From: Escherichia coli
GTDB lineage: Bacteria; Pseudomonadota; Gammaproteobacteria; Enterobacterales; Enterobacteriaceae
Strand: one strand, 5' to 3'
Assembly (NCBI RefSeq): GCF_044324875.1
Contig: NZ_CP172185.1
DNA: 64,000 bases
Position numbers: made by a program. Positions 31,901 to 37,900 of this stretch are shown one piece after another; the first letter of the stretch is position 1; the number at the start of each line of letters is the position of its first letter.

Positions 31901-34900
31901 TTTGCCATCTGGATCCCGCAATTCCTTATCAGCATCCGCCTCTCACGAACGGTAGTAATGGCGTATGAAATCTCTCCGGAGGGCTGTATGTCCCAGAGTT
32001 ACGTTCAGACAGAGATGCCATCTAGGTACTGTCAGGCAGACGAAGAGTGGATTCAGCAGCAGTTACAGGGGCTACCACCGTCACTGAGACGGAAGGTCGC
32101 CCTGAAATATGCGGAGGTATACGAAATCACTTTTGACGCTGAGCCTGTTTCATTCCGCAAGGAGAACAGAGCAAGGCACGAAGCAAACACAAGGCTCCGC
32201 TTGTTTGTGAGAAATCAGGGCAGAGCTTTACAGGGGTATGCAACTCAGCCGCCCCTGGCAGGAACGCAATCGCGCTCCTGATTGGTACCGGGCTTAAAGG
32301 TGTCCGGTGGCTGATTGAAAATGGTAAAAATATTTAGACGTCTATATGTCTGGATGTATTTACCACCCCCTAAATGTTTATGGGGGAAAGGGGGCGGTGT
32401 TGATCTTTTAGCGCGAAGCGCTGGAACAGGCTTTTCCAAGAAGACGGGTACATAGGTTAGGTAGATCTCTGTAAAGGGGAAATACCAGAAGATGTGCGGA
32501 CGCCTAGACGTCCAGATGTAAATGTTCAGAGGTGATTTTATGGTTAACAGTTTTGATGGTGAAAAATGGCTTCCGGTTCCTGTTGCTCCGTATGGTGATG
32601 CTTACCTCGTTAGCTCGGCGGGACGCATCCGTGGGGTTAATCGAATTGCTGAATCGGAATTTTTTATTCGCCAAATTCGTGGCGTGTTCCTCAAGGGAAG
32701 AGTGCGCCGGGATGGATATAAAACCGTTAACCTGAGCTACAAACGTAATCGCCAAACTTTTGCCGTACACCGTCTGGTAGCGCTGGCTTTTTGCAGCAAC
32801 CCTTACAACCACCCTGAAGTGAACCATAAGGACGGCAACAAGCTGAATAACCATGCATCCAATCTGGAGTGGGTTAGCCATAGCGAAAACATTCAGCATT
32901 CTATTCACACCGGGCTGAATAATTCTCAGGGGGCGAACAACAAACAATTTAAGGGCCTGATTGTCGCCACAAATATTGCGACCAGGGAAGAGCAAACCTT
33001 TTGCGGGAAAAAGGCGCTAATTAGTGCCGGGTTTGATCACGGTAGTGTTTATGCTGTTATTGCTGGAAGAACAAAGTCTCATCGCGGTCACCATTTCAGG
33101 CGCCTCCCGCTGAACCATGGGGAGGCAGCACAATGCAGCTGACAATCACGCCGAATTTTGCACAGGAGCGAGCGCTAAACATGTTGCGCCGTGACTGGAA
33201 GGCAAACGACACCTTCATGGTTTACTCGCCAACAGGTAGCGGTAAAACGGGTCTGGCAGCCTTCATAGTTGCTGGTTTTGTCAGCCGTGGTATGCGCGTT
33301 CTGTTCTGTGTTCCGTACACCATCCTGATTGGTCAGACGGCTAATCGGTTCGTGCAGTATGGTTTACCTGGAGATGAAATCGGTTATATCTGGGCGGATC
33401 ACCCTAACTACGATCCGGACCGGAAAATTCAGATTGCCAGCGCTGACACGCTTATTCGTCGTGTTTTTCCTGAAAATATCGATCTGCTGATTATCGACGA
33501 AGCGCACCTGCGTAAAAAACGCATCCTGAAGGATATCGAACGTCTGCGCGGCAAAGGCGTAAAGGTGATTGGCCTGTCGGGTACTCCGTTTTCTCCGTTC
33601 CTGGGCAAATACTATGACCGACTGATTAAGCCGACCACCATCGGCGAGTTAATCCAGCGTGGCGATCTGAGTAAATACGAATTTTACGCGCCAACTAAGC
33701 CGGATCTGAAAGGTGTTAAAACCACATCTTCGCTTGAGTACGGCCGCGATTACAACGAAACACAGCTGGCTGAAATCATGTGCGGCTCTACGCTGGTGGG
33801 CGACATCGTACAGAACTGGCTGGAGAATGGTCGGGATCTACCTACCATCGCTTTCTGCGTCAACGTAGCTCATGCCAATTATCTGACAATCCAGTTTAAC
33901 CTGGCGGGTGTTAACGCTGAGGTAATGACCGCCGACACTCCGGTAGATGAGCGCCAGACCATCATTCACCGCTTTGAAACCGGTGCAACGAAAATCATCG
34001 TTAGTGTGGGCGTTCTGGTAGCCGGATTCGATAGTGACGTTCGTTGCATCATCTACGCCAGACCAACAAAAAGCGAAATTCGCTGGTTGCAGGCACTCGG
34101 GCGTGGACTTCGCACCGCACCGGGTAAAGAGTCCTGCCTTATCTTCGATCACAGCGGCACCGTGCACCGTCTGGGTTATCCGGATTCAATCGAGTACGAC
34201 GATCTTCCCGGTAAGTCTGACGGCATGGAGGAAAGCACGCGCCGCGCAGTTGAGGAACGGGCCGAAAAATTGCCACATGAATGCCCTCAATGCCACTACA
34301 TGAAGCCAGCTGGCGTCTATGTTTGCCCGAAATGTGGACACAAGCCGCTGCGAGGTGAAGACGTTGATACTGACACTAGCCGCAAACTTAATAAGCTGGG
34401 TAAAAATCAGCATCAGTCCACGAAGGCAGAGAAACAGGCCTGGTGGAGTCAGATCAAATTTTATCAGCGCCAGCGTGCCTCACTGGGGCGTCCAGTCAGT
34501 GATGGATGGTGCGCTCACACTTTCAGGGAGAAATTCGGTGAATGGCCTGATGGGTTGAGTAGTTTCCCGATGGAAATAAGCCCAGAGGTAAGTAACTACA
34601 TCAGACACAAGCTGATCCGGTTTGCTAAAGGTCGTGAACGGACACGGAGGATGACGAAAAACTCATCCGAAGTGCTTTCTCTGCCACTGGTTGTTGGTGG
34701 CCGGTATGTTCCACCGGAAGAAAGTGAGGCTTGGCACATTATGCAGGCAAAGCAACAATTCCAGAAAAATATAAACAGTCTGAGTCAGTAAGATGAAAAC
34801 AGCAGATGCAGCGAAAGGCCGTTGGCCTGAAATATTAGAGCACTTCGGTCTGCCGCCGATAACCGGAAAAAATCACTTTAAGGGTGAATGCCCGGTATGC

Positions 34901-37900
34901 GGTGCACGTGGCAAGTTCCGAATTGACGACCGCGACGGTGCAGGAACGTGGATCTGTGTATGTGGTAGTGGCGATGGTATGAAACTTGTCACCCTGACAC
35001 AGGCGAAGCCATTTAACGAGATTTGTACCGAAATAGACCGCCTGATCGGTAATGATTACCAACGGGTTAAAATCCCGGTAACCAGCAGCGCCACCAGCTT
35101 ACGCAAACGGGTATTGAGCAAGTTTTCAAAACTGGAGGCACTGCGTGGTACATCCGGCGCCGCGTATCTTAATTCTCGTGGAATATTCAGTCTTCCTGCT
35201 GAGGCGATCAGGTTCAATGCCAGGCAGAGACACAACGGGAGTGTGTTCCAGTCTCTTTATTCACTTGCTACGGACGATAAAGGGGAGCTGTGCTATCTGC
35301 ATCAGACCCTGCTTGATGGTGATAAAAAAGCAGATATCGGTAGCAGTGCAAAGCGCCTCAAATCCCTGCAGGAAGATAACTATCTGGATCACGCTCGTTC
35401 TGTAGCTATCCGCATGTTTCCTGTCGCCAGCACTCTGGGTATCGCCGAAGGCATCGAAACAGCGCTGTCAGCGCACCAGATTTATAACGTGAACACCTGG
35501 GCAACCATTAACAGCGGCTTTATGAAAAAGTTCCGTGTACCAGCTGGTGTTCTGCATCTGATTATTTTTGCTGACCGTGACGAGAACAGCGCCACCGGGC
35601 TGGCTGCGGCTTGCGAATGTGCTCATGCCAATCTGATGGCAAAGAATGACCTGCAGCGCGTGAGCGTGTACTGGCCGGATCACGATGATTTCAACAATAT
35701 GCTCATGAACGGTGATCAGGTTCGGGAGCTGGTTTTCCATAAGAAAAAGGCGGTTGCGTAATGCGTACTGATAACAACGAACATAAAGTACTATTCACCA
35801 TCCCGACGGCAGCGTACAGCTCCGCCCTCGCAAACATCAAGCCCCTGCCAGAGCAACGGAGAATCACCGGGCATAAGCAGACTGATGCTTATCTTTGGGT
35901 GCTGGAGGTTATCCGTCTGAACGAACCCGCACATCTGGATGCTGCTGAGGCTGCGCTGGTGAAAATTAAAATTTCCCCAAAAGAGGCTCAGGAACGCTAT
36001 TCGCGTTATCTGCTGGCGAATGGTTACGAACCTTTCCAGGTTGCGTTCGGCATCATCGGCATGGATAACCCGGCACAGGCAATCAGTATCGCCCGGGAGA
36101 ATATCAAAAAAGCAGCATCAGTCAGGGCTACGTTTGGTAGCTATGAAGCAGCACTCGAAGATGTGGAAGCCGAGCGAGTGATCAAGTCTTCCCAGAAATT
36201 TATCGACGATCATCTCTGGGGCTGGACTGCAGCCGAGAAGAAAGCGGGCAGAATTGACGGCATCCGTATGAATGAAATTGATGATCAGCGTCGTGCATAT
36301 GTTGATGGCTATCGTGATGTACTGCCAGAGCCTCATACATTGTCAGACGTAGTTCGTGAGTTTGTTTACTGGGACTGGCTCTACAGTGTTCGCCACACTG
36401 CAACTAAAGAACAGGGCGATGAGTTTGGTTACTTTGAGCATCACGAATCGGTATATGACCGCGAGCGCTACCTTGAAAAATTGCTGATGACCATCAAACC
36501 GGTGACACGGGCTGAAGCCGTGGAGGTGTGTCGTTGGTTTTTGGCAAGCGGAAAGGGCGAATATATGAAAGACAATAGCGCTGCGGTCATACTCAATCTG
36601 GTTGGGGAGTGTGAGCAATGAAGCAGGGCTGGAAAGTTTGAAAAACTGGTGAAGGAGTTTACTGCGTGATGGCTGAATTTTTTCTCTATTCTGCCACGCT
36701 TTTTTGCAACAGGTGTGACTGGGTGGAAGGAGGGGACAGATGCGTCTGGAATTTGTTTTGCCTTACCCGCCGCCGGTGAACACTTACTGGCACCGTCGTG
36801 GTGGTAAGTATTTTGTATCAAAAGCGGGGGAACGTTATCGTCGTGATGTCAGGCTTATTGTTCGCCAGCAGCAACTGAGATTAAGGCTGACCGGAAGACT
36901 GGGTATAAAAATCATCGCAGACCCGCCAGACAACCGCCGCCGTGACCTGGACAACATACTGAAAGTACCGCTGGATGCGCTGACCCATGCGGGGCTGCTT
37001 ATTGATGACGAACAGTTTGATGAAATTTATATCGTGCGTGGCGTGTCAGTACCTGACGGGCGTCTGGGAGTGAAGATTTACGAAATTACAGGTGGTAACA
37101 ATGGCGCGTGATATTCAGCAGGTTATGGAGCGATGGGGGGCATGGGTGGCGAATAACCACGAAGACGTGGAATGGTCATCCATTGCCGCCGGATTCAAGG
37201 GGCTGATACCGTCAAAAGTAAAATCGCGACCGCAGTGTTCCGATGATGACGCGATGATTATCTGTGGTTGTATGGCTCAACTGAACCGGAACAACAGTGA
37301 TTTGCATGAATTGCTGGTTGATTACTACGTGTGTGGGATGACGCTGATGAAGTTAGCAAGGAAACATGGATGTTCTGATACGCATATTGGAAAGCGTTTG
37401 CAAAAAGCTGAAGGAGTGGTTGATGGCATGTTGATGATGCTGGGAGTAAGACTTGAGATGGATCGGTATGTGAGCGTAAATTATTCGATGTGCCGTAAAA
37501 CTCCGTCCTTCAGGGCAGGGATATAAGGCGTACAGGATAAATAAAAGAACGGGCGCAAAGCGCCCAAGTATAAACAACAAAAAACGGTAATAAATAACAG
37601 AAAGTCCGTTGGAAAAGTTAAGTACTGTCCAACGTTTTGCAGTGGCATGAGGGCACCACTTTATATGTCAGAAAAGTTTCACTCTCCCGACATATTCTTA
37701 CAAAACAAATCAGAACTGATAAGTCAAACCAACAGCGACAATATCATCGGTTAATACATCAGTTCTTTCAGTGAATTGATTCTTATCAAGCAGGTTGATT
37801 TTATAGTCTACGTATGTAGACATATTTTTGTTGAAGTAATAAGCAGCACCGACTTCAATGAATTTTTCAATGTATCCGTCATTATGTTTTTCAGGGATAC

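What the first reader, a model, noticed from the sequence alone, without database searches (positions are those of the whole stretch)
32540..36621. Replication module is HNH endonuclease + SF2 helicase + primase + unknown 286-aa protein
In place of lambda O/P there is an HNH nuclease, a DEAH-box helicase with a C-terminal zinc ribbon, a zinc/Toprim-like primase and a coupled 286-aa protein of unknown function. The 286-aa protein has no recognisable motif and could be a replication accessory or a moron.
Basis: partly seen in the sequence, partly recalled or inferred. Interest (0 to 1): 0.3.

Follow-up and report, generated by a model that had tools for sequence, protein, structure and literature searches.

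The report
Fels-1-type helicase–primase phage replication unit
This prophage replaces lambda's O/P replication genes with an already catalogued helicase plus primase pair; the nuclease in front of it is a rare selfish hitch-hiker, and the 286-aa protein behind it belongs to a widespread phage family of unknown function that the helicase–primase pair can do without.

Summary
They are not one functional module.

- **Replication core:** the SF2 DEAH helicase and the Zn-ribbon/Toprim primase. This pair is annotated in Salmonella phage Fels-1. It is related to the "Eru1" unit of Stx phages (primase 57.5% identical).
- **HNH gene:** an optional free-standing NUMOD4–HNH homing endonuclease in a variable slot upstream of the helicase. 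It occurs in 5 of 75 related loci and 6 of 5,426 E. coli genomes. It is 100% identical on diverged backbones.
- **286-aa protein:** a member of PHROG 6204, with no Pfam domain.
  - Its confident all-helical model (pLDDT 92.8) matches nothing in PDB or BFVD.
  - It is under purifying selection (dN/dS about 0.1).
  - Most distant relatives carry an N-terminal HTH. They sit last in replication operons, behind primase-helicase, SSB or DnaB-type genes.
  - Phages Fostie and PSTCR3 run straight from primase to Q, and one relative coexists with a Rep_O initiator that has iterons. It is therefore an accessory, not an initiator or loader.

Its function remains unproven. Overall this is ordinary, with one uncharacterised family worth testing.

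The parts
31958..32281 (+). 107-aa basic protein (PHROG 852, unknown function) in the cII position. It is the conserved upstream companion of the helicase lineage.
   Evidence: phrog_852, E=3.7e-41. Present upstream of the helicase in nearly all related loci, including phage Fostie.
32282..32539 (+). Conserved non-coding leader between the PHROG 852 gene and the helicase/HNH. It contains the hairpin at 32286-32307 (7-bp stem, invariant loop TTAAAGGT) and a GCGCGAAGCGC mini-hairpin near 32412-32422. Candidate regulatory RNA site or origin/priming signal; role untested.
   Evidence: conservation; no ORF in the ~440-bp 'empty' allele. (94% of cells paired against 30-45% in slid controls; 6 of 7 pairs with compensatory changes).
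32540..33142 (+). Free-standing NUMOD4-HNH homing endonuclease gene. It is optional mobile cargo, not a replication gene.
   Evidence: NUMOD4, HNH_3. (PADLOC 'homing endonuclease', E=1.6e-23). (presence/absence at one site; 5 of 75 loci). (6 of 5,426 E. coli genomes). (0 mismatches on backbones that diverge elsewhere).
33133..34791 (+). SF2 DEAD/DEAH-box helicase (552 aa) with a C-terminal zinc ribbon and a basic tail. It is the replicative helicase candidate of the unit.
   Evidence: ResIII, Helicase_C, DEAD. (phrog_16 'DNA helicase', E=4e-104). (best NCBIfam hit RadD, far below cutoff). Fels-1 STM0901.1n homologue.
34793..35761 (+). Zn-ribbon + DUF7146 + Toprim primase (322 aa), resembling the N-terminal primase part of P4 alpha-type proteins.
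   Evidence: (phrog_510 'DNA primase', E=2e-130). (95% identical to Fels-1 primase, 57.5% to Eru1B of TL-2011c). AEGIETA and FADRDEN motifs are visible in the translation.
35761..36621 (+). 286-aa protein of PHROG 6204. It is the HTH-less enterobacterial branch of a widespread, uncharacterised all-helical phage family. It is an accessory last gene of the replication operon.
   Evidence: Gene context.
36740..37111 (+). RusA Holliday-junction resolvase. Context only: it is inserted between the 286-aa gene and Q in only 3 of the related loci.
37092..37526 (+). Q antiterminator (PF06530). Context only: it marks the right boundary of the early operon.
   Evidence: E=5.8e-52. In most relatives a Q gene of either Pfam family abuts the 286-aa gene.

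Best explanation
The stretch is the early-right (pR) operon segment of a lambdoid prophage integrated beside mlrA. Its genes fall into three separate kinds.

1. Replication core. This is the SF2 DEAH helicase plus the Zn-ribbon/Toprim primase. The pair is the Fels-1 type of the helicase-primase ('Eru1-like') unit that replaces lambda O/P in many enterobacterial temperate phages. By inference, the helicase unwinds and the primase primes phage DNA without needing a DnaB loader. The origin has not been identified. The conserved non-coding leader with its hairpin, upstream of the helicase, is the best candidate site for origin or regulatory signals.

2. The HNH gene. It is a selfish free-standing NUMOD4-HNH homing endonuclease that has replaced about 110 bp of leader just upstream of the helicase start. 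By inference, it spreads by cutting HNH-less alleles and being copied in during repair.

3. The 286-aa protein. It is a conserved but dispensable accessory of the replication operon. It belongs to PHROG 6204 and has an all-helical fold with no solved relative. Most family members carry an N-terminal HTH, which this enterobacterial branch lacks. They are the last gene after primase-helicase, SSB, ProQ or DnaB-type genes. My committed guess, which is an inference and not shown, is this: it is a regulator or adaptor that works through protein contacts. Its target would be something common to these different replisomes, such as a host factor or DNA. It is not an initiator, a loader or a catalytic enzyme.
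For: - **Domains and coordinates:**
- **Same triad elsewhere:** it occurs in Fels-1 (STM0901.1n/STM0901/STM0902) and in E. coli genomes at 95-99% identity. The primase is 57.5% identical to Eru1B of TL-2011c and many Stx2a phages (PMC8044961).
- **No other replication genes:** none were found among the prophage ORFs scanned.
- **HNH is optional cargo:**
  - The slot has three main states in 75 loci: about 440 bp empty (44), a 122-aa ORF (21) and HNH (5), with a few shorter or odd alleles making up the rest.
  - HNH occurs in 6 of 5,426 E. coli genomes, always at this site.
  - It shows zero mismatches where the backbone diverges up to 37 per 100 nt further on.
  - PADLOC places it in a 'homing endonuclease' model.
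- **The 286-aa protein is a real, uncharacterised family:**
  - Full-length PHROG 6204 match, with all 68 diverse homologues in that family.
  - AF2 pLDDT 92.8, all-helical.
  - dN/dS is 0.10-0.12.
- **Family architecture:** distant homologues carry an N-terminal Sigma70_r4/HTH_23-type HTH or Bro-N.
- **Family gene context:**
  - In 57 of 75 distant loci a primase-helicase or DnaB-type gene lies within 1.7 kb upstream on the same strand.
  - The immediate upstream neighbours are SSB (14), ProQ/FinO (15), Toprim (14) and DnaB_C (5).
  - In several distant loci inspected by eye, terminator-like hairpins with T-runs follow the gene.
- **Dispensable and not the initiator:**
  - Fostie and PSTCR3 have helicase-primase directly followed by Q, and no homologue was found in Fostie.
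  - TL-2011c has NinB in that slot.
  - L179 has Rep_O with iterons plus a DnaB_C helicase as well as a family member.
Against: - No experiment or structural homology links the 286-aa protein to replication. The case rests on gene order.
- In the enterobacterial clade it also always abuts Q, and in L007 it lies next to Q, far from replication genes. A link to late control is therefore equally compatible with position.
- The window's version lacks the HTH that suggests DNA binding in its relatives.
- No origin (iterons or AT-rich block) was found in or near the unit.
- Homing by the HNH enzyme is inferred from its distribution, not from a mapped cleavage site. The identical tract could reflect ordinary mosaic recombination.
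- The viability of Fostie and PSTCR3 is taken from their records as isolated phages, not tested here.
Confidence: 0.7

Rival explanations
1. One reading: all four genes (HNH nuclease, helicase, primase, 286-aa protein) form one replication module. The HNH would nick at the origin and the 286-aa protein would be a necessary replication factor.
For: The four genes are contiguous, co-oriented and overlapping, and sit where lambda has O/P. The Fels-1 operon STM0900-0903 behaved as one responsive operon after mutagen treatment (PMC2225428).
Against: HNH is absent from 70 of 75 related loci and from all but 6 of the E. coli genomes that carry the unit. The 286-aa gene is absent from Fostie and PSTCR3, which keep the helicase and primase.
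Confidence: 0.08
2. The 286-aa protein is a transcription or late-control factor tied to Q rather than to replication. Most of the family would be HTH regulators made at the end of the early operon to switch on or modulate the next stage. The enterobacterial HTH-less form would act on Q or RNA polymerase.
For: In about 75 of 80 close loci its stop abuts or overlaps a Q gene, whichever Q family is present. The Klebsiella 158-aa short form also overlaps Q. In L007 it sits next to Q, about 4.5 kb from the start of the early-right operon. In L004 it is followed by a Q that is 80% identical to Fels-1 Q. The N-terminal HTH of distant members resembles sigma-70 region 4. In several distant loci it appears to be the last gene before a terminator-like hairpin.
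Against: Q follows in only 14-19 of 74 distant loci. L179 has the protein but no recognisable Q downstream. Recombination junctions fall exactly between the 286-aa gene and Q, so Q is swapped while the gene stays with the primase. No similarity to any known transcription factor fold was found.
Confidence: 0.2
3. The 286-aa protein is an anti-defence or host-takeover accessory, or a moron, unrelated to replication. It would occupy the nin-like accessory slot between the replication genes and Q.
For: It is dispensable for the unit. Its slot holds NinB/NinG/NinH in TL-2011c and RusA is inserted next to it here. It is mildly acidic (pI 5.6). It has no known fold.
Against: It has no PADLOC or other defence-related hit (the PADLOC library covers defence systems, not anti-defence proteins). 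It has no promoter or terminator of its own, has the same GC content as its neighbours and is translationally coupled to the primase, so it is not a classic moron. HTH and Bro-N fusions and a fixed position behind replication genes across beta- and gamma-proteobacterial elements are unusual for anti-defence genes.
Confidence: 0.12
4. The 286-aa protein is the origin-binding initiator, or the helicase loader, of the helicase-primase unit.
For: The unit has no recognisable initiator. The family often has an HTH and sits beside primase or helicase genes.
Against: The window's protein lacks the HTH. The unit exists without it in Fostie and PSTCR3. A family member coexists with a Rep_O initiator that carries its own iterons. 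The family accompanies at least four unrelated helicase/primase architectures. No iterons were found in or near the gene.
Confidence: 0.05

Closest known systems
Salmonella phage Fels-1 genes STM0901.1n (helicase), STM0901 (primase) and STM0902 (hypothetical), and the same block in E. coli phages phi467 and vB_EcoS-611R1
   Same: Same three genes in the same order and with the same overlaps, between the immunity region and Q. Amino-acid identity to Fels-1 is 84% for the helicase, 95% for the primase and 82% for the third protein.
   Different: Fels-1 has a 122-aa ORF where the window has the HNH gene. It has a PF03589-type Q and no RusA.
Eru1 replication unit of Stx phages (TL-2011c eru1A/eru1B/eru1C; Llarena et al. 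2021, PMC8044961)
   Same: A DEAD/DEAH SF2 helicase followed by an overlapping Toprim primase of about 322 aa, in place of O/P and under a LexA-like CI repressor. The primase is 57.5% identical.
   Different: The third gene in Eru1 is DUF1367 (NinB/Orf), not a PHROG 6204 protein. The Eru1 helicase is shorter (506 aa). The TTAAAGGT hairpin is absent from TL-2011c. No Eru protein has been studied biochemically (PMC8951638).
Phage P4 alpha protein (primase-helicase-origin binding) and Zn-ribbon/Toprim/DUF927 primase-helicases
   Same: The window's primase shares the Zn-ribbon + Toprim N-terminal architecture. It is 29% identical over 248 aa to a DUF927 primase-helicase that is followed by an HTH-bearing PHROG 6204 homologue.
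   Different: Here the primase is a separate 322-aa protein and the helicase is an unrelated SF2 enzyme encoded upstream. There is no fused helicase or origin-binding domain.
Free-standing HNH homing endonucleases of phages (NUMOD4/HNH_3 class; PADLOC 'HEase' models, PHROG 59/959/1492)
   Same: NUMOD4 + HNH_3 domains with an intact H-N-H motif. The gene is intergenic, next to a conserved essential-type gene. It shows presence/absence polymorphism and is identical on diverged backbones.
   Different: Its cleavage site and homing have not been shown. It sits in a temperate prophage's early operon, where it replaces part of the leader and supplies the helicase's ribosome-binding site.

Membership tests
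Helicase-primase (Fels-1 / Eru1-type) replication unit of lambdoid phages | An SF2 DEAD/DEAH helicase gene in the early-right operon, downstream of the cI/cro region | tested here: met
   (ResIII, DEAD, Helicase_C). cI-like S24 repressor at 30989-31648 on the minus strand.
Helicase-primase (Fels-1 / Eru1-type) replication unit of lambdoid phages | A Toprim primase gene immediately downstream, abutting or overlapping the helicase gene | tested here: met
   The helicase stop codon ends at 34791 and the primase starts at 34793. The primase is 57.5% identical to Eru1B and 95% to the Fels-1 primase.
Helicase-primase (Fels-1 / Eru1-type) replication unit of lambdoid phages | Absence of lambda O/P-type initiator and loader genes | tested here: met
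   No Phage_rep_O, P, DnaB or DnaC hits among the prophage early-region ORFs scanned.
Helicase-primase (Fels-1 / Eru1-type) replication unit of lambdoid phages | The genes actually drive phage DNA replication | not testable with these tools
   No experimental data were found. PMC8951638 states that nothing is known about the replication proteins of Eru phages.
DnaG/P4-alpha-type Toprim primase | Zinc-binding ribbon plus a Toprim domain with conserved acidic residues | tested here: met
   PF08273 (E=3.7e-14) and PF13362 (E=1.8e-14). CPVC...CVCG, AEGIETA and FADRDEN are visible in the translation. Primase activity itself was not tested.
Free-standing HNH homing endonuclease | HNH catalytic motif with a NUMOD-type DNA-binding module | tested here: met
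   PF13392 and PF07463. PADLOC HEase, E=1.6e-23. PHROG 59/959/1492.
Free-standing HNH homing endonuclease | Presence/absence polymorphism at one site among otherwise near-identical genomes | tested here: met
   5 of 75 loci, with exact boundaries against the empty and 122-aa alleles. 6 of 5,426 E. coli genomes. Identical on diverged backbones.
Free-standing HNH homing endonuclease | Cleaves the endonuclease-less allele and is copied into it | not testable with these tools
   Needs in vitro cleavage and co-infection assays.
Known replication initiators, loaders or accessory factors (lambda O/P, DnaC/DnaT, Rep_O and others), as candidates for the 286-aa protein | Sequence or fold similarity to a characterised factor | tested here: not met
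PHROG 6204 (uncharacterised phage protein family) | Full-length match to the family profile | tested here: met
   E=4.4e-181 over residues 1-286 of a 286-position profile. All 68 diverse homologues match it.
Moron (autonomously expressed lysogenic-conversion gene) | Own promoter and terminator, atypical base composition, sporadic distribution independent of neighbouring genes | tested here: not met
   TAATG coupling to the primase. No flanking promoter or terminator. GC of about 0.50, like its neighbours. Constant partner of the primase in 80 of 80 close loci.

The most novel reading that the evidence does not exclude
PHROG 6204 proteins could be a previously unrecognised class of replication-operon accessory or regulator with a new all-helical fold. 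They usually have an HTH fused at the N terminus, which is lacking in the enterobacterial branch. They would be shared by temperate phages and integrative elements of beta- and gamma-Proteobacteria whatever helicase or primase those elements use. They would act on a common host component, for example by coupling phage replication to the host replisome or to the early-to-late switch.
Probability: 0.3. Interest if true: 0.5.

Novelty: new member of a known kind. Interest (0 to 1): 0.3.

Why it matters
The practical value is in correcting the module's anatomy. The replication core is only the helicase and the primase, a type already catalogued in Fels-1 and in the Eru1 Stx phages but never studied biochemically. 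The HNH nuclease should not be counted as a replication gene.

The 286-aa family is common: 132 clusters at 50% identity, in Enterobacteriaceae, Pseudomonas, Azotobacter, Herbaspirillum and others. It is conserved, confidently folded and has no known relative, and it sits in a consistent place behind replication genes. That makes it a reasonable and cheap target for a deletion or interaction study in Fels-1 or an E. coli prophage. Eru-type replication regions have been linked to lysogen stability and Stx phage virulence (PMC8044961), so any regulator of such units would have some applied interest.

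Tried and rejected
- **Single-sequence AF2 model of the 286-aa protein:** useless (pLDDT 40). I redid it with a 68-sequence alignment.
- **Foldseek against afdb50:** not available, so no comparison with the AlphaFold database was made.
- **The search for related loci with broad alignments (A1, A4):** failed because no stretch was conserved enough. Narrower alignments worked.
- **Fusion search for the family:** longer homologues (337-467 aa) gave no Pfam domains beyond HTH and Bro-N.
- **Origin search:** no iterons or AT-rich block were found in 31600-37600, or beside the family gene in distant loci. The exception is the Rep_O iterons of L179, which belong to another gene.
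- **Rfam scan of 29-41 kb:** only two tRNAs.
- **Promoter and terminator scan:** at or below chance.
- **PADLOC for the 286-aa protein:** only a 14-bit stretch.
- **C-terminal-domain profile against PDB:** nothing below E=0.06.
- **Clamp-binding motif:** I considered the conserved N-terminal E-H-x-x-L-F-x-I-P motif as a beta-clamp-binding motif and rejected it. It lacks the conserved Gln and is modelled with high confidence (pLDDT 81-89 over residues 1-30), which argues against a free linear motif.
- **nutL/nutR pair:** I considered the TTAAAGGT hairpin as one half of such a pair. There is no second copy in the prophage.
- **Hairpin as the 286-aa protein's target:** rejected because Fostie has the hairpins but not the protein.
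- **Literature:** searches for STM0902 and Fels-1 replication gave only an operon-level expression mention.
- **Source names:** 'helix-turn-helix domain-containing protein' for the 286-aa clade was not backed by any profile hit here.

Full report
**Observation.**
The window carries a lambdoid prophage from about 23.6 kb rightwards. Its integrase lies at 23655-24941 on the minus strand, next to mlrA. Downstream of a cI-like S24 repressor (30989-31648, minus strand) and a small cro-like ORF, the + strand holds the following genes:
- a 107-aa PHROG 852 protein (31958-32281);
- a non-coding leader of about 240 bp;
- an HNH gene (32540-33142, using the start PGAP chooses in near-identical genomes);
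- a 552-aa helicase (33133-34791);
- a 322-aa primase (34793-35761);
- a 286-aa ORF (35761-36621);
- RusA (36740-37111) and a Q antiterminator (37092-37526).

The HNH protein has NUMOD4 + HNH_3. The helicase has ResIII, DEAD and Helicase_C, and the DEAH box and a CPQC...CPKC ribbon are visible in the translation. The primase has Zn_Ribbon_Prim + DUF7146 + Toprim_3. The 286-aa protein has no Pfam hit. The primase stop and the 286-aa start share TAATG. No O/P-, DnaB- or DnaC-like gene was found among the prophage ORFs scanned.

**The helicase-primase pair is a known unit.**
The same helicase-primase-third-gene block is annotated in Salmonella phage Fels-1 (STM0901.1n, STM0901, STM0902) and in E. 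coli phages phi467 and vB_EcoS-611R1. It matches 247 of 5,426 complete E. coli genomes, and 91 of them cover at least 80% of the query, at up to 99.3% identity. The primase is 95% identical to that of Fels-1. It is 57.5% identical to Eru1B of Stx phage TL-2011c and of dozens of Stx2a phages. Llarena et al. named that helicase + Toprim arrangement 'Eru1', one of several non-O/P replication units in Stx phages (PMC8044961). A follow-up paper states that nothing is yet known about how Eru proteins replicate the phage (PMC8951638). The core is therefore a new member of a catalogued but unstudied kind.

**The HNH gene is cargo, not part of the module.**
- Pairwise comparison shows that window 32480-33117 is replaced in E. 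coli M8 and in Fels-1 by an unrelated segment holding a 122-aa ORF.
- A four-way alignment shows a third, 'empty' allele. It also shows that the HNH cassette replaced about 110 bp of leader, up to 12 bp before the helicase ATG.
- Among 75 loci with both flanking genes, 44 have the ~440-bp empty leader. Four have a ~340-bp leader, one a 668-bp leader, 21 the 122-aa ORF, and 5 (including the window) the HNH gene.
- In complete E. coli genomes the HNH segment occurs in 6 of 5,426, always at this site.
- It is 100% identical in loci whose helicase differs by 7% at the protein level. Mismatches are zero across the HNH gene and rise to 13-37 per 100 nt further into the helicase gene.
- PADLOC's 'homing endonuclease' model matches at E=1.6e-23.
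- This is the signature of a free-standing homing endonuclease. Cleavage and homing themselves remain inferred.

**The 286-aa protein: what it is.**
- It matches PHROG 6204 end to end (E=4e-181). Its C-terminal part matches PHROGs 2887 and 19083. All three are of unknown function.
- It has no Pfam, NCBIfam, PADLOC or PDB-sequence hit.
- An exhaustive HMMER search found 132 family representatives at 50% clustering.
- With a 68-sequence alignment, AlphaFold2 gives a confident all-helical model (pLDDT 92.8, pTM 0.86).
- Profile searches of PDB with the whole family or with the C-terminal domain give nothing.
- dN/dS against Fels-1 and Cronobacter phage ENT39118 is 0.10-0.12, like the helicase.
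- It is a real, constrained protein with a fold that has no solved or viral-predicted counterpart in the libraries available. AFDB could not be searched.

**The 286-aa protein: family anatomy.**
- Most distant homologues have an extra N-terminal HTH of about 45 residues. Ten members hit Sigma70_r4_2 and seven hit HTH_23. One member has a Bro-N domain instead.
- The core begins with a conserved N-x-E-H-x-x-L-F-x-I-P motif.
- The enterobacterial clade, including the window, lacks the HTH.
- Klebsiella phages carry a 158-aa short form that keeps only the N-terminal motif and the C-terminal domain.
- Sources name the HTH-bearing members only 'hypothetical protein', in Herbaspirillum, Azotobacter, Pseudomonas and Accumulibacter.

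**The 286-aa protein: context.**
- In 80 close viral loci the order helicase-primase-286 is invariant. A Q gene of either Pfam family (PF03589 in most, PF06530 in others) follows at once. RusA intervenes in only three loci.
- Among 72 distant, mostly HTH-bearing loci, the immediate upstream gene is ProQ/FinO (15), SSB (14), a Toprim primase (14, of which 11 have DUF927) or a DnaB_C helicase (5).
- A primase-helicase or DnaB-type gene lies within 1.7 kb upstream on the same strand in 57 of 75 loci.
- The downstream gene is Q in only 14-19 of 74 loci.
- In several of the distant loci I inspected by eye, the gene is followed by a GC-rich hairpin and T-run that looks like an intrinsic terminator. 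This was not run through the terminator scan or tested against a control.
- The family is thus typically the last gene of a replication operon, whatever the helicase or primase architecture. The architectures include SF2 + Toprim, Zn-ribbon/Toprim/DUF927 fusions, Toprim-DnaB fusions, and Rep_O + DnaB_C.

**What the 286-aa protein is not.**
- Phage Fostie (helicase and primase about 81% identical at DNA level) and Providencia phage PSTCR3 go directly from primase to Q. No homologue was found in Fostie by tblastn. TL-2011c has NinB/NinG/NinH in that place. The helicase-primase pair therefore does not need this protein.
- In prophage L179 a family member sits after a Rep_O initiator whose gene contains eight TGGTACCGATTCGGTACA iterons, plus a DnaB_C helicase. 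It is therefore not the initiator there.
- It has no promoter or terminator of its own and no compositional anomaly, so it is not a classic moron.

**Mechanism.**
- Shown: the gene content, the optional status of HNH, and the conservation, dispensability and typical position of the 286-aa family.
- Inferred for the core: the helicase and primase replicate the phage without a DnaB loader.
- Inferred for HNH: the nuclease spreads by homing.
- Inferred for the 286-aa protein: it is an accessory regulator or adaptor acting by protein contacts on something common to different replisomes.
- I put about 0.35 on a replication-linked role for the 286-aa protein, about 0.2 on a Q or late-control role, about 0.12 on anti-defence or host takeover, and about 0.05 on initiator or loader.

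**Side finding.**
- The leader upstream of the helicase holds a hairpin (window 32286-32307) with an invariant 8-nt loop, TTAAAGGT, and covarying 7-bp stems.
- Across 32 distinct copies from related loci, 94% of cells pair against 30-45% in slid controls. Six of seven pairs show compensatory changes, and G-U pairs are tolerated on the + strand.
- It occurs once or twice in tandem. It travels with the PHROG 852 gene and the Fels-1-type helicase, and Fostie has it too. It is absent from TL-2011c and PSTCR3, and has no second copy in the prophage.
- It may be an RNA regulatory site on the pR transcript, or an ssDNA signal for the helicase-primase. This is untested.

**Verdict.**
The module is an ordinary, already annotated Fels-1/Eru1-type helicase-primase unit. 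The HNH nuclease is a rare selfish insert. The 286-aa protein is a conserved, dispensable member of an uncharacterised family. Interest is modest (0.3). The most novel reading still open is that PHROG 6204 defines a new class of replication-operon accessory protein.

Noticed in passing
window 32286-32307 (also L010 ~2945-3000, L176 1460-1511, L095 2002-2053): Hairpin with an invariant loop, TTAAAGGT, and covarying 7-bp stems. It occurs in 1-2 tandem copies just after the PHROG 852 stop codon and is preceded by a boxA-like CGCTCCTGA. 94% of cells pair against 30-45% in slid controls, and 6 of 7 pairs show compensatory changes. G-U pairs are tolerated on the + strand. There is only one copy in the prophage. 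It is present in Fostie, which lacks the 286-aa gene.
   Followed up: partly
window 31958-32281: The 107-aa PHROG 852 protein always accompanies the hairpin and the helicase. It has an arginine-rich stretch (FRKENRARHEANTRLRLFVRNQGR) reminiscent of the RNA-binding motifs of N-type antiterminators. It could be the hairpin's binding partner, or an initiator.
   Followed up: no
window 32340-32480: The leader also holds a CCCCC...GGGGG hairpin, G-rich runs (longer in the 440-bp allele: GGGGAAGAGGGAAAGGGGGGTAAGGGGGG) and a GCGCGAAGCGC mini-hairpin inside a block conserved in all alleles. Their function is unknown.
   Followed up: no
window 36622-37111: The RusA gene lies between the 286-aa gene and Q in only 3 related loci (window, L010, L067). 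In most relatives the 286-aa gene overlaps Q directly. Q itself is swapped between two Pfam families exactly at this junction.
   Followed up: partly
L094 6929-7405 (Klebsiella phage KPP5665-2 GP43): A 158-aa short form of the family keeps only the N-terminal N-x-x-H-x-x-F-F-T-I motif and the C-terminal domain. The middle ~145 residues are therefore dispensable in that lineage.
   Followed up: partly
window 22933-24941: The prophage integrase (Arm-DNA-bind_2 + Phage_integrase) abuts an mlrA (yehV)-like gene. That gene's ORF starts inside the MerR HTH, so the prophage appears inserted at or in mlrA, a known integration site of Stx-type phages.
   Followed up: no
window 37710-38813 (- strand) and 39412-39562: A full-length Gram-negative porin gene (Porin_1, E=3e-127) lies on the opposite strand just after Q. 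It is followed by two tRNA genes before the lysis region, a DLP12 nmpC-like moron arrangement.
   Followed up: no
window 27009-28626 (- strand): The early-left operon encodes an ORF6N-domain protein and an SPFH/Band 7 protein. These are possible accessory or defence-type cargo.
   Followed up: no
L179 7600-7900: A prophage in NCBI assembly GCA_001591225.1 has eight TGGTACCGATTCGGTACA iterons inside its Rep_O gene, a lambda-style origin. It also carries an HTH-bearing PHROG 6204 homologue (annotated from Herbaspirillum rubrisubalbicans) after its DnaB_C helicase.
   Followed up: partly
L177 4472-4921 (TL-2011c gp32): The published 'eru1C' replication gene (DUF1367) is now annotated in RefSeq as NinB/Orf recombination mediator and is followed by NinG and NinH. 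It is probably a nin-region gene rather than part of the replication unit.
   Followed up: no
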